Assembly (NCBI GenBank): GCA_007130885.1
Contig: SLRQ01000005.1
Location: forward strand, 5,542 to 69,541
DNA from: Deltaproteobacteria bacterium
GTDB lineage: Bacteria > Myxococcota > Myxococcia > SLRQ01
Direction: 5' to 3'
DNA: 64,000 bases
The position numbers and the translations under genes are program-made. The notes beneath the pieces were generated by a model that ran no database searches, was not told where the DNA came from, and worked only from the letters and a program-made list of their open reading frames with translations. This document shows, piece by piece, positions 4,029-59,378 of the stretch (its first letter is position 1; every line of letters starts with the position of its first letter).

Positions 4029-6197
4029 GTGTCAATGTCAAGACGAGTTCTCATCATCGATGACGATTTAGCCACGGTGTCCGCGGCGCGGCGTTCGTTG
4101 AAGGCCGTAGGGTATCAGCCGATGGTGGCCGCGAGCCGTGCGGACGCGGAAGCCGCGCTCGAGGACGGCATCGTTGATCTCGTAGTGATGTCACTTGGCG
4201 TCGAAGATGGAAGCGGTCTCGATAGATTCGAGGAGCTAAGGCGGCGCCCCGACATGCTGGTGCTACCAGTCTTGTTGATAGGCGATGGTACCGGGAATGT
4301 GTGCGATGAGGATTCCGCGGTCGAGTACGGTGCTGATGGTTACGCGGGCAGTCCGGTTGATTGGAAGGCTCTCGCAGAGGGTTTAGGCTCGTATTTCGGT
4401 GAGGGCGATCAAGATACTGCCCAGGAAGAGCATGACCTGGGGTTTTCGCTCGGCGGCCATGACGATCTCCAGAGCGGTGTTGCGGCACAGGCTGGGGCGG
4501 CCGGTAAGTCCGGCGACTGGGGAGCTAAGGTCTTGGAGGCCGACTGGCGCACCGTCAAGTGCAGCACGCCCAAGGAGAATCGGCTTGGCGGCGGATGGGG
4601 GAGCCAGGGCCTCGATGGAGAGATCGAGCTGGCTGCGCAAGAGCAAGAAGGTTTCTCTCCAAGAGCTGGGCGCCTCCCTGACGTAGTCGATGAGGAGGTG
4701 GGCCGCACAGTGGTGAGCGTGGGCGGAGCTGGTAGGGAGGCGACGGAGCGGGATCCGATCGAGGACACCGCGCTCGAGGATCCATCGATGGAGGACACCG
4801 TGCTCGAGGATCCATCGATGGAGGACACCGTGCTCGAGGATCCATCGATGGAAAACGAACTCGACACTTCGGTGGAGGACGAGACCGACTTCGGTGACCT
4901 CATGCTGGGCGAAGATGAAGATGTACCCTCTAAAACCATGACCGGCGAGGAACAGGCATCTCCCGTGGGGGCCGCGGAGCCGCAAGGCGCTTCGGAGAGC
5001 ATGGCGGAGGACGAGACGGACTTTGGTGATCTCTTCTCGGACGAGGAATACGTCGAGGCTGGTGATTCTCCAGAGGAGCGCGTGGCATCTCCGAAACCCG
5101 GTGAGGTCGGCGTTCCCAGCCGGGTCGGCCAAGCTCCGTCGATGCCCGCCATGCCCCCCGAAGGCGATCTCTCGAATATGGATGTCCCGCATCTTCTCGC
5201 CAAGGCCTGGCGGTGCAGGGCGACCGGAGCACTTCAACTGGAGAGCCCGGCCGGAAGGAGGCAGGTGCACTTCGAGAACGGGCGCCCCGTGGCTTTCATG
5301 ACCGAGGTAGGTGAAGAGCAGCTATACGAGGTGGCTTTGCGCCTGGGGATAGTGACACCCGAGCAGGCCGAGAAGGTGGCCGGCGGGTCTCGCTCCGCCA
5401 GAGAGCAGGCAGGCAAGCTGGTTGAGCTTGGAGCAATGAAGCCGGGCGAGGTCTTCGATACGGTGCGTGCCGCGGCGCATGCCGCTCTGTTTGGGGCTTT
5501 TTCGGACCAGGCGGGAAGCTGGGTGTGGTCCGAGGGCGAGAAATGCCCGGCCGAGCTACGGGTAGAACTTCCCGAACACCCGTATGCGCTGATAGCCGAA
5601 GGCGTTCGAAGGAAGCTGTCTCTCGACGCAGTGTCGTCTCGTCTAGGCGGGCCCTCCGCGATACTCGAGACCTCGGAGGACATGGAACTCGAGTTGCTCG
5701 AGCTTGGCTCCAGGGAACGAAGATTGGCGAAGAAGATCGACGGAAACACCAAGGCCGGGGATCTTGTCTTCGAATCGGGGCTGGGAGAGGAGGGGACTTA
5801 CCAGACCTTGTATAGTTTGGTTGCCTCGGGGCAGGCGGTGGTCAGGGAGCACGATTCCGCTACCCAAGGACGGCGGCCAGCTAACGATGAGCGCCTGGCG
5901 GACGTGGCCATTGATCGAAACAGGGCACTGGAGAAGTTCAAGCAGGTGCTTGGAGGTAACCATTTCGAGATTCTCGGTGTTCACCCGCGGGCGACGTCCT
6001 ACGAGGTTCATGTGGCCTATGACCGACTGTCTCGGCTCTTCGGTTGGGACACTTACGGTAGTGACGAGTTCAAGGATCTTTGGGACAAAGTAGAGGAGAT
6101 TCGCGCCGCCTTGGATGACGCGCGCGACGTGATTGGCTCCGACAGCTCTCGGGCGGACTACCTAGAGGAGCTACGGGCAAGAAAGACGGGCCTCTGA
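4029..6197 (+). CDS. response-regulator receiver - DUF4388/PATAN - C-terminal J-like domain protein with acidic repeat linker
   Basis: N-terminus RVLIIDDDLATVSAARRSLKAVGYQPMVAASRADAEAALEDGIVDLVVMSL is a CheY-like receiver. The middle MDVPHLLAKAWRCRATGALQLESPAGRRQVHFENGRPV matches DUF4388. The C-terminus HFEILGVHPRATSYEVHVAYDRLSRLFGWD resembles a J-domain helix II/III, but no HPD tripeptide is visible. A long D/E-rich repeat region lies in between. Confidence 0.75.
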   Translation: MSMSRRVLIIDDDLATVSAARRSLKAVGYQPMVAASRADAEAALEDGIVDLVVMSLGVEDGSGLDRFEELRRRPDMLVLPVLLIGDGTGNVCDEDSAVEYGADGYAGSPVDWKALAEGLGSYFGEGDQDTAQEEHDLGFSLGGHDDLQSGVAAQAGAAGKSGDWGAKVLEADWRTVKCSTPKENRLGGGWGSQGLDGEIELAAQEQEGFSPRAGRLPDVVDEEVGRTVVSVGGAGREATERDPIEDTALEDPSMEDTVLEDPSMEDTVLEDPSMENELDTSVEDETDFGDLMLGEDEDVPSKTMTGEEQASPVGAAEPQGASESMAEDETDFGDLFSDEEYVEAGDSPEERVASPKPGEVGVPSRVGQAPSMPAMPPEGDLSNMDVPHLLAKAWRCRATGALQLESPAGRRQVHFENGRPVAFMTEVGEEQLYEVALRLGIVTPEQAEKVAGGSRSAREQAGKLVELGAMKPGEVFDTVRAAAHAALFGAFSDQAGSWVWSEGEKCPAELRVELPEHPYALIAEGVRRKLSLDAVSSRLGGPSAILETSEDMELELLELGSRERRLAKKIDGNTKAGDLVFESGLGEEGTYQTLYSLVASGQAVVREHDSATQGRRPANDERLADVAIDRNRALEKFKQVLGGNHFEILGVHPRATSYEVHVAYDRLSRLFGWDTYGSDEFKDLWDKVEEIRAALDDARDVIGSDSSRADYLEELRARKTGL
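4761..4850 (+). repeat. 3 x 30-bp perfect/near-perfect tandem repeat inside CDS (encodes EDT[A/V]LEDPSM x3)
   Basis: gaggacaccg[c/t]gctcgaggatccatcgatg is repeated head-to-tail three times. It is in frame with the 4029..6197 CDS. Confidence 0.9.
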
Positions 6198-25536: not shown

Positions 25537-27749
25537 TCAGCCTTGCAGATTGACAACGAAAAAAGCGGTTCTTCCGGGCAGTGGGTATCCGTAAAGATCT
25601 TCCAGACGGCGATCGTTCAAGAGATTCGCAACGTGAAGCCCGACGGATAGGTTTCGCCGGATTCCTACTTCGGCGCCTGCTCCGAACAGGGTTCGGCCGG
25701 GTATGGAACGTGTGTTTGCCCTGTTTCTTGGGGCGGAGGACTGGACCTCGAGATCACTGTTGATATCGAGCCTCCCGATGCTCGCGGTCACTCCGGCGAA
25801 GCCTCGATGTCTCGGCCGGTACGGAAGCGTTTGCCCGTGGACGTTGGGCTTCGGCGATAGGTTGACGGCATCGGTCAGGGTATAGGCGCACGATGCCGAC
25901 AGCCAATCGGTGGGTCGCCATTTCGCCTCCGCCTCGAGACCTCTAGTCAACGCTTCTCCCACGTTGAACGGCCGCAGACGCAGAGGAGGGAAGAGTTCAT
26001 AGGTTATTAGGTCTCGATATCGGCTGTGCCATCCCATCACTCGCAAATGAACCTGGTCTTGCGCAAGCTCGACTCCTCCGTCGAACGTGACGGCCGACTC
26101 CGGCTGGAGCTCATCGTTGTTGGCGATGAGCGCCGTTGATCCATGAAGCTCGAAAAGGGTGGGCATGCGCACGCCTCTGCCCACGTTGGCTGACAGCACA
26201 ATGGATGCGGGAAGGGTGATATTCGCGCCGAATCGTGGAGAGAGTGTCGCAGGGTGGCCGCCGAAGGCGTCGAGCCTGATGCCGCCGTGCAGTGTCAAAA
26301 GGTCGTTTGCGAGAAAAGCCGTGTCGGAGACGAGCAGTGAGGCCGCCGGCCGAGTGGTTGCCGCCCCAGTGCCCGATAGCATTTCCATGCTGGCTTCACC
26401 GGAGATCTGGAGAGCCGTGCCGGCCACCAGGGCTTCCGCGGAGCTTCGCAAACCGATTACTCGGCGAGAGTTGGTAAAGGGGCTGCCCAGGCCGGGCGCG
26501 GGGTTCTCGCCCGGCTCATACTCATAGCCGTCGCCGGACATCCACGTAGCGGCGCTCCAACGGACGGACCTGTTGCCCACGGGATCGGAAGTGAAAATGC
26601 CGCCAAGAAGCGACCGTGTCGTGTCGCTGGTCGCCCCCGGTGATGGAAAGCCGACCATGCCGGCAACATCTCTTCGGTTCTTGTGTCCGAAGGCCGTAAT
26701 CTGAAGATGGCCGCCGCTCGCCGGTACCGAAGTCGACAGGATGCCGGAGCCCGAGAGCAGATTGTTGTTATCGCGTTCTTGGGTGGACCAGCTTGCGTCC
26801 GGTATGTTCGGGGTCAACAATCTTTCATACTCGAAGGTACCGCGAGAGGCATAAAGATCGATGCCGGCCGCCGCTCGGACGTTGCCGTCGGTTCCCCTCC
26901 AACCGGCAGCGGTACCGACGCTCTCGAGGCTGTCGCCCCGCGCGGTCAAGGAGCGTTTCGGCTCGAGATCATGGGATGCGCCGGGCGTCAAGGGATTCAG
27001 ATGCAACACTCCGCCCAGAGCTCCCGCTCCGTGTATTGCCGCCTCGGTGCCTCTTGTCACCACCATGCTCTCCAGAAGACTGGGTGGTACGGCGGACAGA
27101 TCGACCGCGCCTCCCCCCGGCGGAGTGATCGGGAGACCGGCCAAGGTTACGACCACCTGATCCGCCGCGGAGCCTCGAATGGAAGCAGTGATCGGTGATC
27201 CGGGCGCTCCACTTCGCCTGAGCGTTACACCGGGGGAACGAGAAATGGCCCTGCCGATGTCTATGGTGGCCCTGTCGGCCCCGCCGATCTCGATCTTGGT
27301 TGCGGCCGATGTTGGCGAGGCTTTATCGGCGGTGTCTCGGTGCACGCCGGCCGCGGTAACGTCTATCGTGGGAGCTTCCAGGACCGTCGTGCCCGAGCGC
27401 TCCCCGCGTTCATCGTCACCGGAAGTCTCATCATCGCTTTCCGTAACGTCGTTGTCATTCTCGCTTGCAGGATCGACAGGCTCGATGCTCGCTGCTTCGG
27501 AAGACTTCTCTTCATGCGCCGCGTCGTCCGCCTTCAGCGGCGAAGCAGTGCCGAGAAGTAATGACGCTGCCGCCAGGAGGGCAAGACGAGCGGAAAGCGA
27601 GGCTGGAAGATCTTCTAGCCGGCCTGCAGACGCTGGAATAGGTAAAGGCCCCGGTCCGGCTTCCTCATGGCTCCATTCCGGCCTACGCCGGAATGACAAT
27701 AGGGGCGCTGTTGCCGCCTTGCCTCGTGTCCCGCTGAACCGGATTTCCA
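25537..27749 (-). CDS. btuB: TonB-dependent outer-membrane receptor, cobalamin-type
   Basis: Plug domain (…GAPGSPITASIRGSAADQVVVTLAGLPI…) and a C-terminal beta-barrel. Immediately downstream, in transcript sense, of a cobalamin riboswitch. The start is ambiguous: the signal-like h-region LALLAAASLLLGTASPLKA lies ~50 aa after the first RBS-supported ATG at 27749. Confidence 0.8.
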
Positions 27750-27814
27750 TTTTTGGCTGCCTCTTTCGACCGAAGAGTCGAGCCACGACGCCCGTGAGGA
27801 TGTCGTCGCACATG

Positions 27815-28005
27815 GCTTGCAGGCAGGTTTCCTGGCTTCCGGGTTCGGATGCTGGTTTGCATCTTGCGCAATCTTCCGCCTTCCCCGCTTACGAGGCGAG
27901 TGGCGCATGGACGATCGCTCCCCGGCTACAGTGGCGGGACCGCGCCGGCTTTTGACCGGTCTTCCCTTTCAACCCCGAGTCCTTTTCGTATCAATCGGGA
28001 CTTGG
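27815..28005 (-). promoter_or_regulatory. cobalamin (AdoCbl) riboswitch in the 5' leader of btuB
   Basis: Minus strand contains AAAGGGAAGACCGGTCAAAAGCCGG (GGGAA/GGTGaAA core), CCCGCCACTG (B12 box) and a 3' CAGCATCC...GCCAGGAAACCTGCC element, in the canonical order. It sits directly upstream of the TonB-dependent receptor. Confidence 0.8.
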
Positions 28006-28135
28006 AGCACCTGCAGCCTCTATTCGAATTGCGGGCACCGTAAATGAAGGTATCTTCGGATGTCAACACCTTCAGTGAATCCCAAATCGTCGGGTGTCTG
28101 TCTCGAGTGGCGTAGGCGGTATGCGGTGAGCGGCG

Positions 28136-52969: not shown

Positions 52970-53977
52970 TCAGGCACTTTTGGTCCGGGTCTCGTCCTCG
53001 CGCTCGGCCAGCTCCAGGTCGTGAGCTACCATGCGCTGTACGAGATCCTGGAAGCCCACTTTCGGAGTCCATCCGAGCTGCTCATGCGCCTTGGAGGCGT
53101 CGGCGCACAAGAGCTCGACGTCGGCGGGGCGCGTGAGCGCCGAGTCGCTACGAACGTAATCGCGCCAATCCAGGCCGGCCGCTGAAAAAGCCGCCTGGCA
53201 AAAATCGCTGACCGATCTCGTCTCGCCGGTGCCTATGACGTAATCCTCGGGCTCGTCGGCCTCCAACATGAGCCACATCGCTCGAACGTAATCCTCGGCG
53301 TGACCCCAGTCGCGCATGGCGTCGAGGTTGCCGAGAAACAACTCCTTTTGGAGGCCCAGCTTGATCCGGCCCACCGCGCGCGTGATCTTCCGCGTGACGA
53401 ACGCCTCCCCACGGCGTTCACTTTCATGGTTGAACAAGATGCCGTTGACGGCGAACATCCCGTAGGCCTGTGCGTACGTCCGAGTAATGTAGCAGGCGTA
53501 GGCCTTTGCCGCCGCGTAAGGACTCCGCGGGCGAAACGGTGTTTGCTCGTTTTGGGGAGACTCCGTAACCTCGCCGAAAAGCTCGCTGGTGCTGGCTTGA
53601 TAGAAGCGGCAGTCGATTCCCGCCTTTCTTATGGCTTCCAGCATGCGGAGGGTTCCAAGACCCGTGATCTCCCCAGTGTGGTCGGGATTTCGAAAAGACT
53701 CACCCACGTGGCTTTGCGCCGCCAAGTTGTACACCTGGTTTGGCCGAATCTCGGTAACGAGCCTCTCGAGGCAGGGGCCGTCCGCTATGTCGCCGTAATG
53801 CAGATGTAGGCGATCGCCGCCCTTGGAGGCGGCATGGGCGAGGTTTGGAGACTGAAGAGCTCGTATTAGGGTCGACTGCCGGACCACCCCATGTACTTCG
53901 TACCCTTTGTCGAGCAATAGCTCGGCGAGATAGGAACCATCCTGCCCCGTAATCCCAGTTATCATGGCGCGCTTCAT
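52970..53977 (-). CDS. gmd: GDP-mannose 4,6-dehydratase
   Basis: MKRAMITGITGQDGSYLAELLLDKGYEVHG... Rossmann fold plus a Y..K catalytic region. ATG at 53977 preceded by GAGAGG. The long in-frame upstream extension to 55483 in the ORF track is not part of this gene. Confidence 0.85.
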   Translation of the reverse strand: MKRAMITGITGQDGSYLAELLLDKGYEVHGVVRQSTLIRALQSPNLAHAASKGGDRLHLHYGDIADGPCLERLVTEIRPNQVYNLAAQSHVGESFRNPDHTGEITGLGTLRMLEAIRKAGIDCRFYQASTSELFGEVTESPQNEQTPFRPRSPYAAAKAYACYITRTYAQAYGMFAVNGILFNHESERRGEAFVTRKITRAVGRIKLGLQKELFLGNLDAMRDWGHAEDYVRAMWLMLEADEPEDYVIGTGETRSVSDFCQAAFSAAGLDWRDYVRSDSALTRPADVELLCADASKAHEQLGWTPKVGFQDLVQRMVAHDLELAEREDETRTKSA

Positions 53978-54079
53978 AGCTGAACCTCTCGACGCCTCGC
54001 CCGGGAGAAGCGATGCGAGCAGTGCCGTGGTAGTCAATGTTGCGATTCCACAGCTGACGTTACGAAGGCGAACTCGAGT

Positions 54080-55621
54080 GTGGAAGGCGGGCAAAATGCC
54101 CCGGAAAAGAAGGCTACGGGCTTTTTCCTGTTGACCATCCAAGTTCCATGGGCCAGATCTCCACCCATGAGCAGACAAGGCAAGGAGTTTGGTACCGATA
54201 GAGCGGGCAGGGATGGCGGCCGTAGAGCCGATGATCGCGGGAGAGGATCTCCGGGATCGGGTAGGCGAGATGGGCCGGGAGAAGGTGGACGTGGACGGGA
54301 CGCTCGAGGCCGTGGCGGTCGCGGGGACGGCAGGCGCCGTGGAGCCGGACGGGACGAGCGACGGGGCCGCGGAGGAAGACCCGGAGACAAGAGCGCATGG
54401 GAGCGGGAACGCAGGGTGGAGACGATCAAGGAGCTTATTCCCTCGGTGGATCGACCCATGGTCAAGGGAGACTTCGCCGGCCAGATGGGCCCTCTCGACA
54501 AGCTTCGAGAAGCCGTCTGCGCGGTTCGTCCGAAATCGATGGACGATTTCGGGACAGACCTGAAGGGCAGATTGCTGACGCTGTTGCTTCGGGTCGGCCG
54601 GCAGAGCAAGAAACAGGAGGACGAGGAAAAGGAGGCGGCCCGTATCAAGGTGCTCGAGGGATTGGCTCGCGTCTGGCTGGCGCTCGGTGACAATAGGCGC
54701 GCGGCGGGAGCGCTGCAAACCGCGGGTAAGGACGAGGCCGCCGCGGCTCTTCTCGATGAGAGTGGAGAGTGGAGGGCCAAGGTTGCGCTGCACCGTGCTA
54801 CCGGCGAGCCCGGCAAGGCGGCAAGGATTCTCGAGGAAAAGGGGGAGCTGGCCGATGCCGTGGAAGCCTATGCGGAAGCCGGCGACGGGGAAGGACGCTT
54901 GAGGGTGCTCGTGAAGCTTGGTGATGAGGCGAAAGTAATCGAGGCCCTCGACGCGATGCCCAAGGAGAAAGCCGAGGATGCGGCGATAAGGCATGGCGTG
55001 CTGGATGCTTGGGCCAAGGTCCTTACCGAGAGACAGGACTGGGATGGAGTCGCAAGGTTGTACCAGAAGCACGGGCGACAGGACATCGCGGCAAGAGCAT
55101 GGGAAGAAGCCGGTGATTTTCGCAAGGCAATGAAGGCGTACCGGGTCGCTGGTGACGCCGAGGGCCATGACCGTTGCCTGGATGCAATAGTGGAACAGCA
55201 CACGCGGAAGAACGATCTGTTGGGCGCCGCCAAGATTCTGGCCGGTGCGGGTTTGCTCGATCGAGCGGCGGAGGTAGCCGCGGAAAAGCATCCCGAGGAA
55301 GCCCACGAGTGGTTCATCGAGGGCGGCTACAAGGACAAGGCTCTCGATCTTGCGAGGCGAGAAGCCCGTAAAGCCGAGGGGCATCAGGACTACCGCCTTC
55401 GAGCCGTCTGGCTGGAACGGGCCAAGGACTTCGTGTCGGCAGCCACGCTTTGGGAAGGTTTGGACGACCTGGAGAAAGCCCAAAAGCTATATGAAGAAGC
55501 TCGTGCCTGGGAGCCTGCGGCGCGATGCGCGGAAAGTCGAAAGAGGTTCGACGAGGCCGTCGAACTCTACTACAGAGCCAATCTTCCGGAGAAGGCCGAG
55601 CGCGCAAAGCTTCTTGGATAG
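54080..55621 (+). CDS. hypothetical protein: N-terminal Arg/Gly-rich (RGG-like) disordered region + C-terminal alpha-helical repeat (TPR/HEAT-like) array
   Basis: Residues ~40-110 are almost exclusively R/G/D (GRDGGRRADDRGRGSPGSGRRDGPGEGGRGRDARGRGGRGDGRRRGAGRDERRGRGG). These are followed by ~34-aa periodic helical repeats carrying recurring EAGD/VAGD and KA.KAY elements. GTG start with GAAGG upstream; alternative ATG at 54167. Opposite-strand ORF judged non-coding. Confidence 0.5.
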   Translation: MEGGQNAPEKKATGFFLLTIQVPWARSPPMSRQGKEFGTDRAGRDGGRRADDRGRGSPGSGRRDGPGEGGRGRDARGRGGRGDGRRRGAGRDERRGRGGRPGDKSAWERERRVETIKELIPSVDRPMVKGDFAGQMGPLDKLREAVCAVRPKSMDDFGTDLKGRLLTLLLRVGRQSKKQEDEEKEAARIKVLEGLARVWLALGDNRRAAGALQTAGKDEAAAALLDESGEWRAKVALHRATGEPGKAARILEEKGELADAVEAYAEAGDGEGRLRVLVKLGDEAKVIEALDAMPKEKAEDAAIRHGVLDAWAKVLTERQDWDGVARLYQKHGRQDIAARAWEEAGDFRKAMKAYRVAGDAEGHDRCLDAIVEQHTRKNDLLGAAKILAGAGLLDRAAEVAAEKHPEEAHEWFIEGGYKDKALDLARREARKAEGHQDYRLRAVWLERAKDFVSAATLWEGLDDLEKAQKLYEEARAWEPAARCAESRKRFDEAVELYYRANLPEKAERAKLLG

Positions 55622-55671: not shown

Positions 55672-58668
55672 TTGGTAGACTCTTGCGCTCGGCGCCGTAG
55701 GGTGCCACTTCAGGCGAGTCCTCGAATGACGATCGGAGCGGCTACAGCAAGAGACTTCAAGCAGCCTCCACTGGGTAGAGGCGGTGATGCCCGAGGGCTG
55801 ACGGCTCTGCTGGAGGGGGAAAGCGTAGTTGCCTTGGTAGCGGGTCGGGGTTTCGGTAAAACGAAATTGCTGCAGTGGGCGGCCGCTTCAAACGGCGTCA
55901 ACCTCCATAGCGGCAGCGCTCCCGGGACTTGCTCCCAAGGCGAGCTGGTGGTGATCGATGATGCGGATGATCTGCCAGTAAGGTCGCGTCAAGCTCTGGT
56001 TCGACGCGTTCGCAAGGCTCGGGGTCGTCTTTTGATGGCTTTTCGCGGCCTCGAGAAGGTCCCCTCCGGTTGGACAGTGAGAAAGCTCGGGTGTATCGAA
56101 CGCGTGGATGCCGTTTCGTTGCTCGAGTCGGAGCTCCGAAGCCTCAAAAAGAACATACCTGTCGAGGACATTTGCGATCGTTTGGGAGGCCACCCAGGCC
56201 TGCTTGCCACCGCCATTGAAATCGGCCGAGGGAAAAAGCAGGCGAAGACTTTCTTCTGTGACCTAGGAAGCCGTCTTCGCGCTCAATGGGTCGAACCTCT
56301 TTCGCCGGCCATGCGCCGGGCCTCCGCCATGCTTGCCGCCGCGGGAGGCTGGCTTCCGCTCACCTTGGATGTGAAAGGCTTTCAGAGGGCCGCATCCGAT
56401 TTGGTGAGAGACGGCCTTGCGGACCTCGATGATGGAGCGGTGGTGGTCTCTCCGCTTCTTCTTGCCGCAAAGAACGATCAGCTTGGTCGCGCTGTCTTGA
56501 TTTCAATGGTGGAGGCGCTGCGAGGTCAGAAGCCCATCGAACCTTCCGGCGTCAGACTTGCCGAGGCGAACCTGTTGCAACGGCTCGGTGAAGACGACTT
56601 GGCACTGAGTTCTCTGCGAGGTGCTTACCGATTTATGCGAGGCACACCTCGAAAGGGATGGTTTGAACGCAGTATAATGTGGCTTCAGTCCGAGGAGCCC
56701 AGCGCGCTTGGAGATGCGGCTCGGTTGGCATGGGAGGTTAGGCGAACCGGGTTGTATGGACAGCCGGAGGCCTCCGCCGAGAAGGTACGAAAGCTCTTGG
56801 AGAGGGGCTCGCTGGAGAGCGAGGAAGTCCTCGAGGCCCGTGCCTTTCTGGCATTCCTCAAGATGCGGAAGGGCGAGGGAGAGGAGGCCTTTCAGGATCT
56901 GGAAGGAGTAGTCGAGGATGCTGTCCGCTTGGGTGATCCACACGGCGAGGCGCAGGCGCTCCTATGGCAGGCGCTCCTCTGTTGCATCGGCGATGAACAG
57001 AGGCTGGCGGGCGCCAAGGCCAGCCGTGCGATGAGAGTGGCTCGCCGCACCGGAGTTCCCGCTTTGCATGCGCGAGCCCTCTTTTTTATGGGACGCTGTG
57101 ACCTTCTGGAGGGTGACTGGGAGGCCGCGTCCCGGCGCCTGGAGCAGTCACTTCGTCTTTGTAGGCGCCATAGGCTGGAGGACGATCAAGTGGTTGTGCT
57201 CGATGCGCTTGCAGGTCTTGCCAGCCACATCGGGCGCCCCAGCGAGGCAGCCGAGCACTTGGCCTTGGCGGATGTATTGGCGGGGCGAAGCGGGGTGCCT
57301 TCCAGAAGGGCCGAGCTTGCGGTCACGCGGGCCGAGGTAGCCTTGAAGCGCGGACACGTGACTGAATCCCGCGAGATTTTGGAAGCCGCCGACCGCATTC
57401 TACTCTCCCAGGTCGGAGACGTTTGGAGAAGGGATCTCGTAGCTGCCGAGGCAGCATTGGCCGCCGATGACATTGCCGGCGCCAAGCGAGAGCTGGCCGA
57501 GATGACTCCGCCTCCGGCTATCTCGAAGTCCTGGAGGCGTCGAAAGGCGTTCGTGGCGGCGTGCTTGCTCGAGGAGGGCGTGAAACCGGAGGTGGATCTC
57601 GAGGAGTGTCTCGAAGACCCCTTGGCCGAGCTTTGTCTGCGGCGGGCCGGCGGTGACAGGGAAGGGGCCCTTCGTGCCATCCTCGAGGTCGAAAAGGGGC
57701 TTTCGGATGACGACCTCGAGGGGTGGGTCTTTTTGAGATCGGAGTCCAGCCGTCTTCGGTTCATGGATGGACGTATCGAGGAGGGGACCTCGGATCTACG
57801 GGACCTTCGGCAAAGGCTGGTGCGTGGCAGCCCACCGACCTCCGTAGTCTTGTTCATAGAAGCCATAGAGCATCTGGCACGCGGTGAGTTACTTGCCGCC
57901 GCGAGATGTTCCGCCGCTTCGCTGCGGTTCGCCAGGCGTCTTGGTTACAAGCGAATGGCCGCCTACGCGCTCGAGTGTTTGCTGCTATCCCATTTGATAG
58001 AAGGTCGCTCCCGAGGAGTGCGCTCCCTGCTGGCAAGAGGGCAGCGTATGGTGGCTGAATGCGGCTCGCCGGCCAGAGCCGCGAGGTTCGCGACTTACAA
58101 GGTCGTCTCCGCAATTCGCTTCGGGGAGTCCCCAGAGCCAAAGGACGTCCTGGCGGCGCGGCGGTCGAAGGATCCTCTCGTCGTGGAGCTTGCCGACCTC
58201 GTTTTGGGCAAGCCGCGAGAGCGTGGCCGAAGCGGCGAGGCTGGACCGGGTAGATCTCTTGCCGTTTGGTTCAGGTCCATGGCTCTGACCGGGGCATCCG
58301 AGACGGCATCTCTCGGCGGGATGGAAGGTCCCGCGACCGAGCTGCGTATCGATGGTGAGCGACGGGAGGTCGTGCTGGCCGGTGGGAAGAGGATTTCCTT
58401 CGCCCGGCGCCGGGTTCTATGGAGGCTGCTTTGGAAGCTCTTGGAGGCGAAGGGTAGAGCAACGGATCCCTCTTCCTTGTATTGTTACGCCTGGGAACTA
58501 CCCTTCAACGCCAGTCGGCTGAACTCTCTTTATGTGGGAGTGCGGCGCTTGAGGCTGTTGGTCGAGCCGGATCCCAGCTCTCCCAGGATCATATTGGCCG
58601 CGGAGGGAGGGGGTTACGCCATGGATATAAGAAGAGTGGAGGTTGTGGGACACTCTCCACTGGGTTAG
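55672..58668 (+). CDS. STAND-class P-loop NTPase - TPR-like repeats - C-terminal OmpR/PhoB-type winged-helix (Trans_reg_C) putative regulator
   Basis: Walker A VALVAGRGFGKTKLL, Walker B ELVVIDDADD, and a GxP-like LGGHPGLLATA motif. ~600 aa of helical repeats follow. The C-terminal RRRVLWRLLWKLLEAKGRATDPSSLYCYAWELPFNASRLNSLYVGVRRLRLLVEPDPSSPRIILAAEGGGYAMD fits the Trans_reg_C wHTH pattern (…RLR..L……I.TV.G.GY). Confidence 0.65.
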   Translation: MVDSCARRRRVPLQASPRMTIGAATARDFKQPPLGRGGDARGLTALLEGESVVALVAGRGFGKTKLLQWAAASNGVNLHSGSAPGTCSQGELVVIDDADDLPVRSRQALVRRVRKARGRLLMAFRGLEKVPSGWTVRKLGCIERVDAVSLLESELRSLKKNIPVEDICDRLGGHPGLLATAIEIGRGKKQAKTFFCDLGSRLRAQWVEPLSPAMRRASAMLAAAGGWLPLTLDVKGFQRAASDLVRDGLADLDDGAVVVSPLLLAAKNDQLGRAVLISMVEALRGQKPIEPSGVRLAEANLLQRLGEDDLALSSLRGAYRFMRGTPRKGWFERSIMWLQSEEPSALGDAARLAWEVRRTGLYGQPEASAEKVRKLLERGSLESEEVLEARAFLAFLKMRKGEGEEAFQDLEGVVEDAVRLGDPHGEAQALLWQALLCCIGDEQRLAGAKASRAMRVARRTGVPALHARALFFMGRCDLLEGDWEAASRRLEQSLRLCRRHRLEDDQVVVLDALAGLASHIGRPSEAAEHLALADVLAGRSGVPSRRAELAVTRAEVALKRGHVTESREILEAADRILLSQVGDVWRRDLVAAEAALAADDIAGAKRELAEMTPPPAISKSWRRRKAFVAACLLEEGVKPEVDLEECLEDPLAELCLRRAGGDREGALRAILEVEKGLSDDDLEGWVFLRSESSRLRFMDGRIEEGTSDLRDLRQRLVRGSPPTSVVLFIEAIEHLARGELLAAARCSAASLRFARRLGYKRMAAYALECLLLSHLIEGRSRGVRSLLARGQRMVAECGSPARAARFATYKVVSAIRFGESPEPKDVLAARRSKDPLVVELADLVLGKPRERGRSGEAGPGRSLAVWFRSMALTGASETASLGGMEGPATELRIDGERREVVLAGGKRISFARRRVLWRLLWKLLEAKGRATDPSSLYCYAWELPFNASRLNSLYVGVRRLRLLVEPDPSSPRIILAAEGGGYAMDIRRVEVVGHSPLG

Positions 58669-58683
58669 CCGAGACGTCTTCGG

Positions 58684-59235
58684 CTAGGCCCGGCTGGGTG
58701 CCTCTCTCTCGATCGGGATGGCTTCTTTGTATTGCAGGCGTGCGGCGAGATAGAGGCCGAGAGGCACACCGAAGAAGAGGATGTGCGTGATGGCCTGGAT
58801 GAGCTGGTTCATCTCGAGGAACCATGGGTAAAAGCCTCGTGCGACGAGCTGGAAAGCCACGACCCAGATCAGTAGTCCATAGATGCCGGCTGCCGCGGAG
58901 TGACTCCCGAGGTTATCCCGTACTCCCTTGGGTACGCCCGATGCAACGAAGCCCCAAATAAGCCCAAAGACCGCGGCCATAACGAAGTGGACTCCGATGC
59001 CCACCAGGACGACCCCCGCGGTGATTTGCTCGAAAGCGGCGGCGCCCAGGAGCACCGACGCAAATAACTGCCACGTGTACCCGATTCCCATCCCAGCGGA
59101 AACCGCCCCTATCATCTGGGCGATGGCGAAGACCACACCGCCAATGAGGCCGGCGACTACCGCGTTTCCAAGAATGGTTTGTCGACTTGCCTCGGCGTTC
59201 GCCCGCCTAGCTTTTCTTTCCTTTTCGTTCGACAT
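58684..59235 (-). CDS. hypothetical integral membrane protein (4-5 TM)
   Basis: ATG at 59235 with AAGGAG RBS. Hydrophobic segments VVAGLIGGVVFAIAQMIGAV, VLLGAAAFEQITAGVVLVGIGVHFVMAAVFGLIWGFV, AAAGIYGLLIWVVAFQLV, ITHILFFGVPLGLYLAA. Confidence 0.5.
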   Translation of the reverse strand: MSNEKERKARRANAEASRQTILGNAVVAGLIGGVVFAIAQMIGAVSAGMGIGYTWQLFASVLLGAAAFEQITAGVVLVGIGVHFVMAAVFGLIWGFVASGVPKGVRDNLGSHSAAAGIYGLLIWVVAFQLVARGFYPWFLEMNQLIQAITHILFFGVPLGLYLAARLQYKEAIPIEREAPSRA

Positions 59236-59378
59236 GAGATGCGCTCCTTGAGTCGGACCGCCCAATTAATGCAGCGGTAGCATAAGTTGACCTCTCAAGA
59301 GCAACATCGAAACTACAGAGACACCTTGCAAGGTGGCTTTTTGCCCGAGGGGCGTATACCCGTCGCGACCTAAAAGAA

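What the first reader, a model, noticed from the sequence alone, without database searches (positions are those of the whole stretch)
55672..58668. Compact STAND-type NTPase with TPR array and an unusual C-terminal OmpR-type winged helix
The N-terminus has a tight P-loop (GRGFGKTKLL), a Walker B only ~35 aa downstream (VVIDDADD) and a GxP motif (GGHPGLL). These are hallmarks of STAND/MalT-like signal-transduction ATPases, and the region is followed by ~600 aa of TPR-like helices. Known relatives carry the DNA-binding domain as LuxR-HTH at the C-terminus (MalT/LAL) or as an OmpR-wHTH at the N-terminus (SARP/AfsR). Here a Trans_reg_C-like wHTH (…VGVRRLRLLVEPDPSSPRIILAAEGGGYAMD) sits at the extreme C-terminus, the reverse of the SARP layout. 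It is co-directional with, and 50 bp downstream of, an RG-rich alpha-repeat protein. It may be an uncharacterised ATP-dependent transcriptional switch, or a STAND sensor of the kind also used in antiviral Avs-like systems, but no effector domain is visible.
Basis: partly seen in the sequence, partly recalled or inferred. Interest (0 to 1): 0.7.

Follow-up and report, generated by a model that had tools for sequence, protein, structure and literature searches.

The report
Degenerate STAND–TPR regulator with C-terminal wHTH
This gene encodes a 980-residue probable transcription regulator (shrunken NLR-like ATPase module, long helical-repeat sensor, OmpR-type DNA-binding domain at the tail) that belongs to an uncharacterised family of Myxococcota-type bacteria and has lost several residues that normally drive the ATP switch.

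Summary
The gene is real, but its start is ATG 55726 (980 aa), not TTG 55672. The Walker A, Walker B and GxP motifs are present. About 580 aa of helical repeats follow, and a complete OmpR/PhoB winged helix sits at aa 871-968 (Pfam Trans_reg_C 29.6 bits, cut-off 26.2).

The layout is not unique. At least 65 uncharacterised ~950-aa Myxococcota proteins share the same N-to-C order and are full-length homologues. The window protein belongs to a tiny divergent branch of about 6 lineages, all from metagenomes.

- About 45 aa are missing between Walker A and Walker B.
- The MHD-like His is gone in 0/6 members (sister family: 62/65).
- The Walker A Lys is kept in only 3/6 (sister family: 65/65).
- The wHTH is by far the most conserved part (73 % against 28-49 %).

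It is most likely a one-component transcription regulator whose NOD is becoming nucleotide-independent. There is no defence signature, and the RG-rich neighbour is not a conserved partner. I rate it a new variant of a known kind, of moderate interest.

The parts
55726..58668 (+). Complete gene: 980-aa STAND-like NOD, TPR-like solenoid and OmpR-type wHTH regulator (stop codon included)
   Evidence: The ORF is listed. The ATG start matches the orthologue alignment and an identical 980-aa public gene call.
55673..55681 (+). Conserved extended -10-like promoter element, TGGTAGACT (TGnTAnnnT)
   Evidence: It occurs once in the 64-kb window. TGGTAGACT, TGGTAGGCT or CGGTAGACT lies roughly 33-45 nt upstream of the start in four of five orthologous lineages, and L009 has TGCTACGAT. 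The promoter role is inferred, not shown.
55813..56091 (+). Reduced P-loop nucleotide-binding domain (aa 30-122), about 45 aa shorter than in canonical relatives between the Walker A helix and Walker B
   Evidence: AF2 model with pLDDT 81 shows beta1-P-loop-alpha1-beta2-beta3-alpha-beta4-beta5. HMM and hhalign matches to canonical STAND NBDs come in two colinear pieces.
55840..55863 (+). Walker A (A39-G-R-G-F-G-K45-T46)
   Evidence: Read directly from the sequence. The Lys is K/K/R/V/R/K in six orthologues.
55945..55962 (+). Walker B (L74-V-V-I-D78-D79)
   Evidence: D78, D79 and A80 are invariant in all six orthologues.
56092..56295 (+). Helical domain 1 (aa 123-190) with the invariant G155-H156-P157 (GxP) motif
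   Evidence: It aligns to the G-S-P motif of canonical relatives.
56296..56475 (+). Winged-helix domain of the NOD (aa 191-250). S242-P243 stand where relatives have the MHD-like His-Asp
   Evidence: AF2 secondary structure shows H194-205, E209-211, H219-228, E232-235 and E238-241. The hhalign alignments are, and the residue counts.
56476..58215 (+). Helical-repeat (TPR-like) solenoid, aa 251-830; presumed sensor or interaction domain
   Evidence: The AF2 model shows about 27 helices with pLDDT 70-90. Pfam gives TPR_12 at 30.4 bits and TPR_MalT at 24.6 bits. Foldseek matches TPR proteins and the STAND-TPR protein PH0952, 6mfv.
58336..58629 (+). OmpR/PhoB-type winged-helix DNA-binding domain (aa 871-968), the most conserved part of the protein
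   Evidence: Pfam Trans_reg_C scores 29.6 bits against a cut-off of 26.2. The PDB profile search finds 6cqg, 5za3 and RpaA at E = 7e-5 to 5e-4. Mean pairwise identity is 73 % against 28-49 % elsewhere.

Best explanation
The gene encodes a cytoplasmic one-component transcription regulator of a Myxococcota-type lineage. It has three parts in N-to-C order.

- A reduced STAND NOD (NBD-HD1-WHD, aa ~30-250).
- A ~580-aa TPR-like solenoid.
- A complete OmpR/PhoB winged-helix domain (aa 871-968).

It is a small, divergent branch of a larger uncharacterised family with the same order.

Shown here:
- the domain identities;
- full-length homology to that family;
- very strong constraint on the DNA-binding domain;
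- relaxed constraint on nucleotide-handling residues across the branch.

Inferred, by analogy with MalT and AfsR:
- The solenoid receives the signal, which could be a small ligand, a partner protein or Ser/Thr phosphorylation.
- The NOD then mediates release of auto-inhibition or self-association.
- That brings wHTH domains together on direct repeats near promoters, where they act on RNA polymerase.

In this branch the NOD appears to be turning into a nucleotide-independent, or binding-only, scaffold. Loss of the His-Asp switch motif may make it less dependent on nucleotide exchange. The window copy still has K45/T46, D78/D79 and R107, so it may still bind ATP.
For: - wHTH: Pfam Trans_reg_C is above its cut-off, and the family profile matches solved OmpR/PhoB-type domains. 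It is the most conserved region, at 73 % mean pairwise identity.
- Homology of the NOD to canonical NODs: hhalign 99.4 %, E = 6e-21.
- Full-length homology to 14 canonical Myxococcota STAND-helical-Trans_reg_C proteins: 99.9 %, E = 1.8e-32, 823 columns.
- Relaxed catalytic residues: Walker A Lys 3/6, sensor-1 Arg 2/6 and MHD-like His 0/6, against 65/65, 59/65 and 62/65 in the sister family.
- Context: core chromosomal genes (PriA, AlaRS, ClpS/ClpA, SAHH, GTP cyclohydrolase) and lineage synteny. The gene has its own conserved promoter-like element.
- Literature analogies: in AfsR the NOD and TPR inhibit the wHTH and ATP binding relieves this (PMC10936776). Mutating the AfsR His-Asp motif gives a constitutively active regulator (bioRxiv 10.64898/2026.09.02.748808). 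Inactive STANDs have precedent (PMC7159879).
Against: - There is no experimental data for any member of either family. DNA targets, signal and oligomeric state are all unknown.
- The wHTH was modelled at low confidence in the full-length AF2 run, which used only 3 sequences.
- The subfamily sample is small (6 sequences, one truncated), so the 3/6 and 0/6 counts rest on few lineages.
- The window protein itself keeps an intact GKT, DD and a candidate sensor-1 Arg, so it may still be a working ATP switch.
- No Pfam STAND model hits the protein directly.
Confidence: 0.6

Rival explanations
1. It is a canonical ATP-dependent STAND switch. ATP binding and hydrolysis in the NOD are essential. Ligand binding to the TPR array triggers nucleotide exchange and oligomerisation, and the C-terminal wHTH then activates transcription, exactly as in MalT or AfsR.
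For: The window copy has an intact Walker A (GKT), Walker B (DD), a candidate sensor-1 Arg (R107) and GHP. The Walker B DD and GHP are invariant in all six orthologues. The sister family is fully canonical.
Against: Orthologues at 38-45 % identity carry R or V in place of the Walker A Lys. They remain full-length, with a near-identical wHTH. The MHD-like His is absent in all six, and about 45 aa of the NBD are deleted.
Confidence: 0.25
2. It is an Avs-like antiviral STAND sensor. The TPR array would recognise a phage protein, with the wHTH or an unseen partner acting as the effector.
For: Its general architecture (STAND plus a large C-terminal repeat sensor) resembles that of Avs proteins. Defence and non-defence STAND clades are interspersed (PMC13581612).
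Against: There is no PADLOC hit, no nuclease, protease, TIR or SIR2 effector, and no defence-island context. The neighbours are housekeeping genes, and synteny is conserved vertically within the lineage. The most conserved part is the DNA-binding domain, whereas an arms-race sensor would be expected to diversify.
Confidence: 0.03
3. It is a scaffold or adaptor protein in which the wHTH no longer binds DNA. For example, the wHTH could bind protein or RNA polymerase only, and the protein would work through TPR-mediated protein interactions.
For: TPR solenoids are typical protein-interaction modules. No target site has been identified. In the upstream region, only a single -10-like element is conserved across orthologues.
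Against: The recognition-helix region (NSLYVG[VI]RRLRLLVEPDP) aligns to the DNA-reading helix of solved OmpR/PhoB-type domains with the RRLR core retained. It is nearly invariant across orthologues, as expected for a conserved DNA target.
Confidence: 0.07

Closest known systems
Unnamed Myxococcota family of ~950-aa nSTAND1/AAA_16/NB-ARC, helical-repeat and C-terminal Trans_reg_C proteins (e.g. P0068, P0194 of Polyangium spumosum; labelled 'hypothetical protein' or 'OmpR/PhoB-type domain-containing protein')
   Same: They share the same N-to-C domain order and a similar length. They are full-length homologues (hhalign 99.9 %, 823 aligned columns). They share the N-terminal 'GR..' motif, Walker B, G-x-P, and the C-terminal wHTH with its RRLR/RKLR recognition helix.
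   Different: The sister family has a canonical NOD: Walker A Lys 65/65, sensor-1 Arg 59/65 and LHD-type His 62/65. It is recognised by the Pfam STAND models. The window branch lacks about 45 aa between Walker A and B, lacks the His, and varies the Lys and Arg. Neither group has been characterised experimentally, as far as the literature searches show.
AfsR / large SARP regulators (Streptomyces)
   Same: Both are STAND NOD plus TPR transcription regulators that use an OmpR-type wHTH. In AfsR the NOD and TPR auto-inhibit the DNA-binding domain and ATP binding relieves this (PMC10936776). A His-Asp motif acts as the activation switch (bioRxiv 10.64898/2026.09.02.748808).
   Different: In AfsR the wHTH is N-terminal and is followed by a BTAD domain. 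Here the wHTH is C-terminal and no BTAD was found. The His-Asp motif is absent here. The phylum is different.
MalT / LAL regulators
   Same: The order is the same: NTPase, helical/TPR sensor, C-terminal DNA-binding domain. The solenoid gives sub-threshold TPR_MalT matches.
   Different: From my own knowledge, MalT carries a LuxR/GerE-type HTH at its C-terminus and a full-size NOD. Here the DNA-binding domain is OmpR/PhoB-type and the NOD is reduced. TPR_MalT is below its cut-off (24.6 against 45 bits).
OmpR/PhoB response regulators
   Same: The C-terminal effector domain is of the same fold and family, in its usual C-terminal position.
   Different: There is no receiver (REC) domain. A ~870-aa STAND-TPR module takes the place of the phospho-acceptor input.
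Inactive STAND (iSTAND) NTPases of MoxR-vWA ternary systems
   Same: They are a precedent for STAND modules that have lost catalytic residues and act as non-enzymatic modules (PMC7159879).
   Different: iSTANDs belong to conflict systems with MoxR and vWA partners. No such partners or effectors are found here.

Membership tests
STAND class of P-loop NTPases | P-loop NBD with Walker A (GK[ST]) and Walker B (hhhhDD) | tested here: met
   The window protein has A39-GRGFGKT46 and L74-VVIDD79. The Walker A Lys is not conserved in the subfamily (K/K/R/V/R/K).
STAND class of P-loop NTPases | NBD followed by a helical domain with a GxP motif and then a winged-helix domain (the NOD tripartite core) | tested here: met
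STAND class of P-loop NTPases | Conserved His (MHD/LHD-type) in the winged-helix domain and a sensor-1 Arg after beta4 | tested here: not met
   The His is absent in 6/6 members, with S242-P243 at or next to that position in the alignments. The sensor-1 Arg is present in only 2/6 (the window copy has R107). The sister family has 62/65 and 59/65.
STAND class of P-loop NTPases | Significant match to a curated STAND model (NB-ARC, NACHT, AAA_16, nSTAND) | tested here: not met
   No Pfam or NCBIfam hit covers aa 1-330. Homology is seen only by profile-profile comparison with canonical members (99.4 %) and by weak colinear HMM hits.
OmpR/PhoB winged-helix effector domain (Pfam Trans_reg_C, PF00486) | Score above the Pfam gathering threshold, covering the recognition helix and wing | tested here: met
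   29.6 bits against a cut-off of 26.2, over aa 899-965 and model positions 11-76 of 77. P0004 scores 31.1 bits. The PDB profile search hits OmpR/PhoB-type domains at E = 7e-5.
TPR repeat proteins | Curated TPR model above threshold and an alpha-solenoid fold | tested here: met
   TPR_12 scores 30.4 bits against a cut-off of 30.1, which is marginal. The AF2 solenoid has pLDDT 70-90. Foldseek matches TPR proteins at E about 1e-5 to 1e-6. Most repeats are too divergent for Pfam.
SARP / AfsR family | N-terminal OmpR-type wHTH followed by a BTAD domain | tested here: not met
   The wHTH is C-terminal and there is no BTAD hit at E <= 1.
MalT / LAL family | C-terminal LuxR/GerE-type HTH and a MalT-type TPR region | tested here: not met
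   There is no GerE/LuxR hit, and TPR_MalT scores 24.6 bits against a cut-off of 45.
OmpR-family response regulators | N-terminal receiver (REC) domain with a phospho-acceptor Asp | tested here: not met
   There is no Response_reg hit. The NCBIfam response-regulator models match only the C-terminal ~95 residues, far below their cut-offs.
Avs / defence-associated STANDs | Match to known defence models, an effector domain, and a defence-island context | tested here: not met
   PADLOC gives 0 families, there is no effector domain, and the neighbours are housekeeping genes.
Unnamed Myxococcota STAND-helical-Trans_reg_C family (P0068-like) | Colinear full-length homology with the same domain order | tested here: met
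   hhalign gives 99.9 %, E = 1.8e-32, over query 16-966 and template 22-957. The window branch is a divergent offshoot with a reduced NOD.

The most novel reading that the evidence does not exclude
This branch may be a naturally 'unlocked' STAND transcription factor. It has lost the His-Asp (MHD-type) switch motif, and in half of its lineages the Walker A Lys as well. The NOD may therefore no longer cycle nucleotide and may act as a permanent oligomerisation or scaffold module. Control would have moved entirely to the TPR sensor or to Ser/Thr phosphorylation. That would make it a natural counterpart of the engineered auto-active AfsR mutants, and an evolutionary intermediate between an NTP switch and a pseudo-NTPase regulator.
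Probability: 0.3. Interest if true: 0.55.

Novelty: new variant of a known kind. Interest (0 to 1): 0.4.

Why it matters
STAND/NLR proteins are studied as nucleotide-driven switches. The bacterial transcription regulators of this class cited in a 2026 survey are MalT, GutR and AfsR (PMC13581612).

This locus points to a fourth, uncharacterised layout, with an OmpR-type wHTH at the C-terminus. The layout is recurrent in Myxococcota, a phylum with very large regulatory repertoires.

Within it, this branch has switch residues (P-loop Lys, sensor-1 Arg, MHD His) that are decaying while the DNA-binding domain stays almost invariant. If confirmed, it would be a natural test case for how much of NLR-type regulation really needs the nucleotide cycle. 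It would also add a family of regulators to annotate in Myxococcota genomes.

The finding is not a new principle. No target genes or signals can be named from sequence alone.

Tried and rejected
- Operon link with the upstream RG-rich alpha-repeat gene: rejected. Its 71 %-identical homologue lies 9.5 kb upstream in L001/L003 and 3.7 kb upstream in L008. In L002 the gene directly upstream is unrelated (only ~0.8 kb held), and in L009 none of the three upstream genes held (3.5 kb) carries its Pfam signature. The target gene also has its own conserved -10-like element.
- Intergenic terminator between the two genes: no evidence. The hairpin z-score is -0.06, and the terminator scan found nothing there.
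- Defence system: PADLOC found nothing.
- Direct Pfam or NCBIfam recognition of the N-terminal NTPase: none. NCBIfam gave only far-sub-threshold response-regulator matches to the wHTH.
- afdb50 fold search: the library was unavailable.
- Ser/Thr kinase linkage: Pkinase genes lie within about 7 kb in 4 of 8 distinct loci of the two families. They are adjacent in L002 and L005, but absent near the window gene. Kinases are abundant in these genomes, so this is only a weak hint.
- Rfam: no RNA element near the gene. The only hit is a cobalamin riboswitch far upstream in the window.
- Second copy in the window: none. tblastn with sister-family proteins hits only the wHTH of this gene.
- Literature searches for a characterised STAND regulator with a C-terminal OmpR wHTH: none found.
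Full report
**The observation**

The gene is real.
- Full-length homologues at 54 % (P0002) and 45 % (P0003) identity were found among 5.8 billion proteins.
- An exhaustive HMM search of 1.84 billion cluster representatives added P0004, P0005, P0006 and some fragments.
- Exactly this 980-aa product is a public gene call on a 145-kb metagenomic contig.

The true start is ATG 55726. All orthologues align from that Met. The intergenic gap is therefore 104 bp, not 50 bp.

**Domains**

The protein is numbered from ATG 55726.
- *C-terminal wHTH.* Pfam finds Trans_reg_C at aa 899-965 (29.6 bits, cut-off 26.2). A three-sequence family profile hits solved OmpR/PhoB-type DNA-binding domains (6cqg, 5za3, RpaA 9dvt; E = 7e-5 to 5e-4). 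The recognition helix NSLYVGVRRLR aligns to RTVDVTVRRLR. The N-terminal beta-sheet of the domain is also present, so the complete domain spans about aa 871-968.
- *Helical repeats.* TPR_12 is just above its cut-off (30.4 against 30.1). TPR_MalT is below its cut-off. A full-length AF2 model shows a confident alpha-solenoid from about aa 330 to 830. Foldseek matches TPR proteins and the STAND-TPR protein PH0952, 6mfv.
- *N-terminus.* No Pfam, NCBIfam or PADLOC model recognises it.

**Is the N-terminus a STAND module?**

Three lines of evidence say yes.
1. An HMM of aa 1-330 from six orthologues hits the NTPase domains of canonical STAND proteins (P0069, P0029, P0068, P0090). Pfam assigns those domains to NB-ARC, AAA_16 or nSTAND1. 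The hits come in two colinear pieces. Together they cover the 'GR..' N-terminal motif with Walker A, and then Walker B through GxP.
2. hhalign of the six-sequence NOD against four canonical NODs gives 99.4 % probability, E = 6e-21, over 275 columns. It exposes a deletion of about 45 residues between the Walker A helix and the Walker B strand.
3. An AF2 model of aa 1-330 (pLDDT 81, pTM 0.78) shows beta1/P-loop/alpha1/beta2/beta3/alpha/beta4/beta5. A four-helix domain carrying GHP follows, and then a winged helix.
   - Classical AAA+ proteins align over shorter stretches.

**The architecture is not unique**

Several ~900-aa proteins in the representative search have a canonical STAND domain at the N-terminus and Trans_reg_C at the C-terminus (P0056, P0068, P0069).
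- A search with P0068 returned 67 clusters at 90 % identity, almost all 900-1000 aa, with nSTAND1/AAA_22/AAA_16/NB-ARC plus Trans_reg_C.
- The few that carry names are called 'hypothetical protein [Polyangium spumosum]', 'OmpR/PhoB-type domain-containing protein', 'AAA family ATPase [Deltaproteobacteria bacterium]' or 'helix-turn-helix domain-containing protein [Myxococcota bacterium]'.
- A profile of 14 of them aligns to the window family over 823 columns, 16-966 against 22-957, at 99.9 % and E = 1.8e-32.
- Shorter TPR plus C-terminal Trans_reg_C proteins of about 370 aa also exist.

So the N-to-C order NTPase, helical repeats, OmpR wHTH is a recurrent but uncharacterised Myxococcota theme. 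The window protein belongs to a small divergent branch of it. That branch has about six lineages, all from metagenomes. Only one of the 185,579 species genomes scanned carries it, an 'uncultured delta proteobacterium' MAG.

**What distinguishes the window branch**

| Residue | Sister family (65 full-length) | Window branch (6 orthologues) |
|---|---|---|
| Walker A Lys | 65/65 | 3/6 (K, K, R, V, R, K) |
| Sensor-1 Arg | 59/65 | 2/6 (window R107 and P0003) |
| LHD-type His of the winged helix | 62/65 | 0/6 |

- S-P, S-E or S-A occupies or flanks the His position in both hhalign alignments.
- Walker B DD and GHP remain invariant in the branch.
- Mean pairwise identity by region is 43 % (NBD), 30 % (HD1), 45 % (WHD), 41-49 % (solenoid) and 28 % (linker), against 73 % for the wHTH.
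- Selection therefore acts most strongly on DNA recognition and is relaxed on nucleotide chemistry.
- The window copy keeps GKT, DD and R107, so it may still bind ATP.

**Context**

The 64-kb window is ordinary core chromosome. It contains:
- PriA, AcrB, a P-type ATPase and AlaRS;
- a cobalamin riboswitch with a TonB-dependent receptor;
- an REC-HD protein, GTP cyclohydrolase I, SAHH and ClpS/ClpA;
- GDP-mannose dehydratase, an M28 peptidase and an aminotransferase.

The upstream alpha-repeat gene has a 71 %-identical homologue in L001/L003, but there it is 9.5 kb away with about ten genes in between. In L008 it is 3.7 kb away. In L002 the gene directly upstream (only ~0.8 kb is held) is unrelated, and none of the three genes held upstream in L009 (3.5 kb) carries its Pfam signature. 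This is lineage synteny, not a conserved gene pair.

Upstream of the start codon, the only conserved non-coding block is a short -10-like element.
- It reads TGGTAGACT in the window (55673-55681) and in L002, TGGTAGGCT in L001/L003 and CGGTAGACT in L008. L009 has TGCTACGAT.
- It lies roughly 33-45 nt upstream of the start. It occurs once in the window.
- It fits an extended -10 element (TGnTAnnnT). This suggests the gene has its own promoter, which is an inference.
- No terminator is evident between the two genes.

Ser/Thr kinase genes lie nearby in 4 of 8 loci of the two families, but not near the window gene. This is a weak hint only.

**Mechanism**

A 2026 survey names MalT, GutR and AfsR as the STAND transcription regulators (PMC13581612).
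- In AfsR the NOD and TPR inhibit the wHTH, and ATP binding relieves the inhibition (PMC10936776).
- Mutating AfsR's His-Asp motif makes it constitutively active (bioRxiv 10.64898/2026.09.02.748808).
- Catalytically inactive STANDs are known in other systems (PMC7159879).

By analogy I propose the following, all of it inferred. The solenoid senses a ligand, a partner protein or a phosphorylation state. The NOD mediates release of auto-inhibition or self-association. The juxtaposed wHTH domains then bind direct repeats. In this branch the nucleotide cycle is dispensable or reduced to binding only. Nothing here is shown experimentally, and the targets and the signal are unknown.

**Verdict**

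- The domain assignment is correct, and the layout differs from the characterised STAND regulators.
- The layout recurs in dozens of uncharacterised Myxococcota proteins.
- The ATP-switch assumption is doubtful for this branch.
- The Avs-like idea and the link to the RG-rich neighbour are not supported.

I rate it a new variant of a known kind, with moderate interest (0.4).

Noticed in passing
window 27805-28029 (-), with ORF 25537-27813 (-): There is a cobalamin riboswitch (Rfam RF00174, 100.5 bits) directly upstream of a TonB-dependent receptor gene (Plug plus beta-barrel). This is a standard B12-regulated uptake arrangement.
   Followed up: partly
window 54080-55621 (+): This is the upstream 'RG-rich alpha-repeat' ORF. 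The public gene call starts only at 54458 (387 aa) and omits the Arg/Gly/Asp-rich first ~126 codons. The L001 homologue is called at 509 aa and the L008 homologue at 394 aa. Whether the RG-rich N-terminus is translated is unresolved. The helical part gives only sub-threshold matches to IFT122/IFT140/IFT172-type TPR models.
   Followed up: partly
window 52970-55483 (-): The 837-aa minus-strand ORF is an artefactual extension. Only its last ~330 residues are a GDP-mannose 4,6-dehydratase (gene call 52970-53977). The remainder overlaps the alpha-repeat gene on the opposite strand.
   Followed up: yes
window 58684-59265 (-): A conserved hypothetical protein (193-aa ORF; public aa) lies convergent to the regulator gene and has no Pfam hit. 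A 66 %-identical homologue sits in L002 (7274-7777), but there two Ser/Thr kinase genes separate it from the regulator gene.
   Followed up: partly
L001 ~9935, L002 ~684, L008 ~7750 (upstream of the orthologous genes): A GATTCCA heptamer occurs 6-24 nt upstream of the -10-like element in three of five orthologous loci, at variable spacing. It is not present in the window. In L002 it overlaps the upstream gene's stop codon. It may be chance.
   Followed up: no
window 4029-6197 (+): There is a 722-aa protein with an N-terminal receiver domain and a DUF4388 domain. I recall this combination as typical of Myxococcota-type signalling proteins, which would fit the inferred lineage, but I did not test that.
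   Followed up: no
L005 5428-6978 and 7001-9796: In one sister-family locus, a Ser/Thr kinase (Pkinase plus PEGA) ends 22 bp before the co-directional STAND-wHTH gene. This suggests co-transcription in that lineage and recalls the AfsK-AfsR pairing. It is not general.
   Followed up: no
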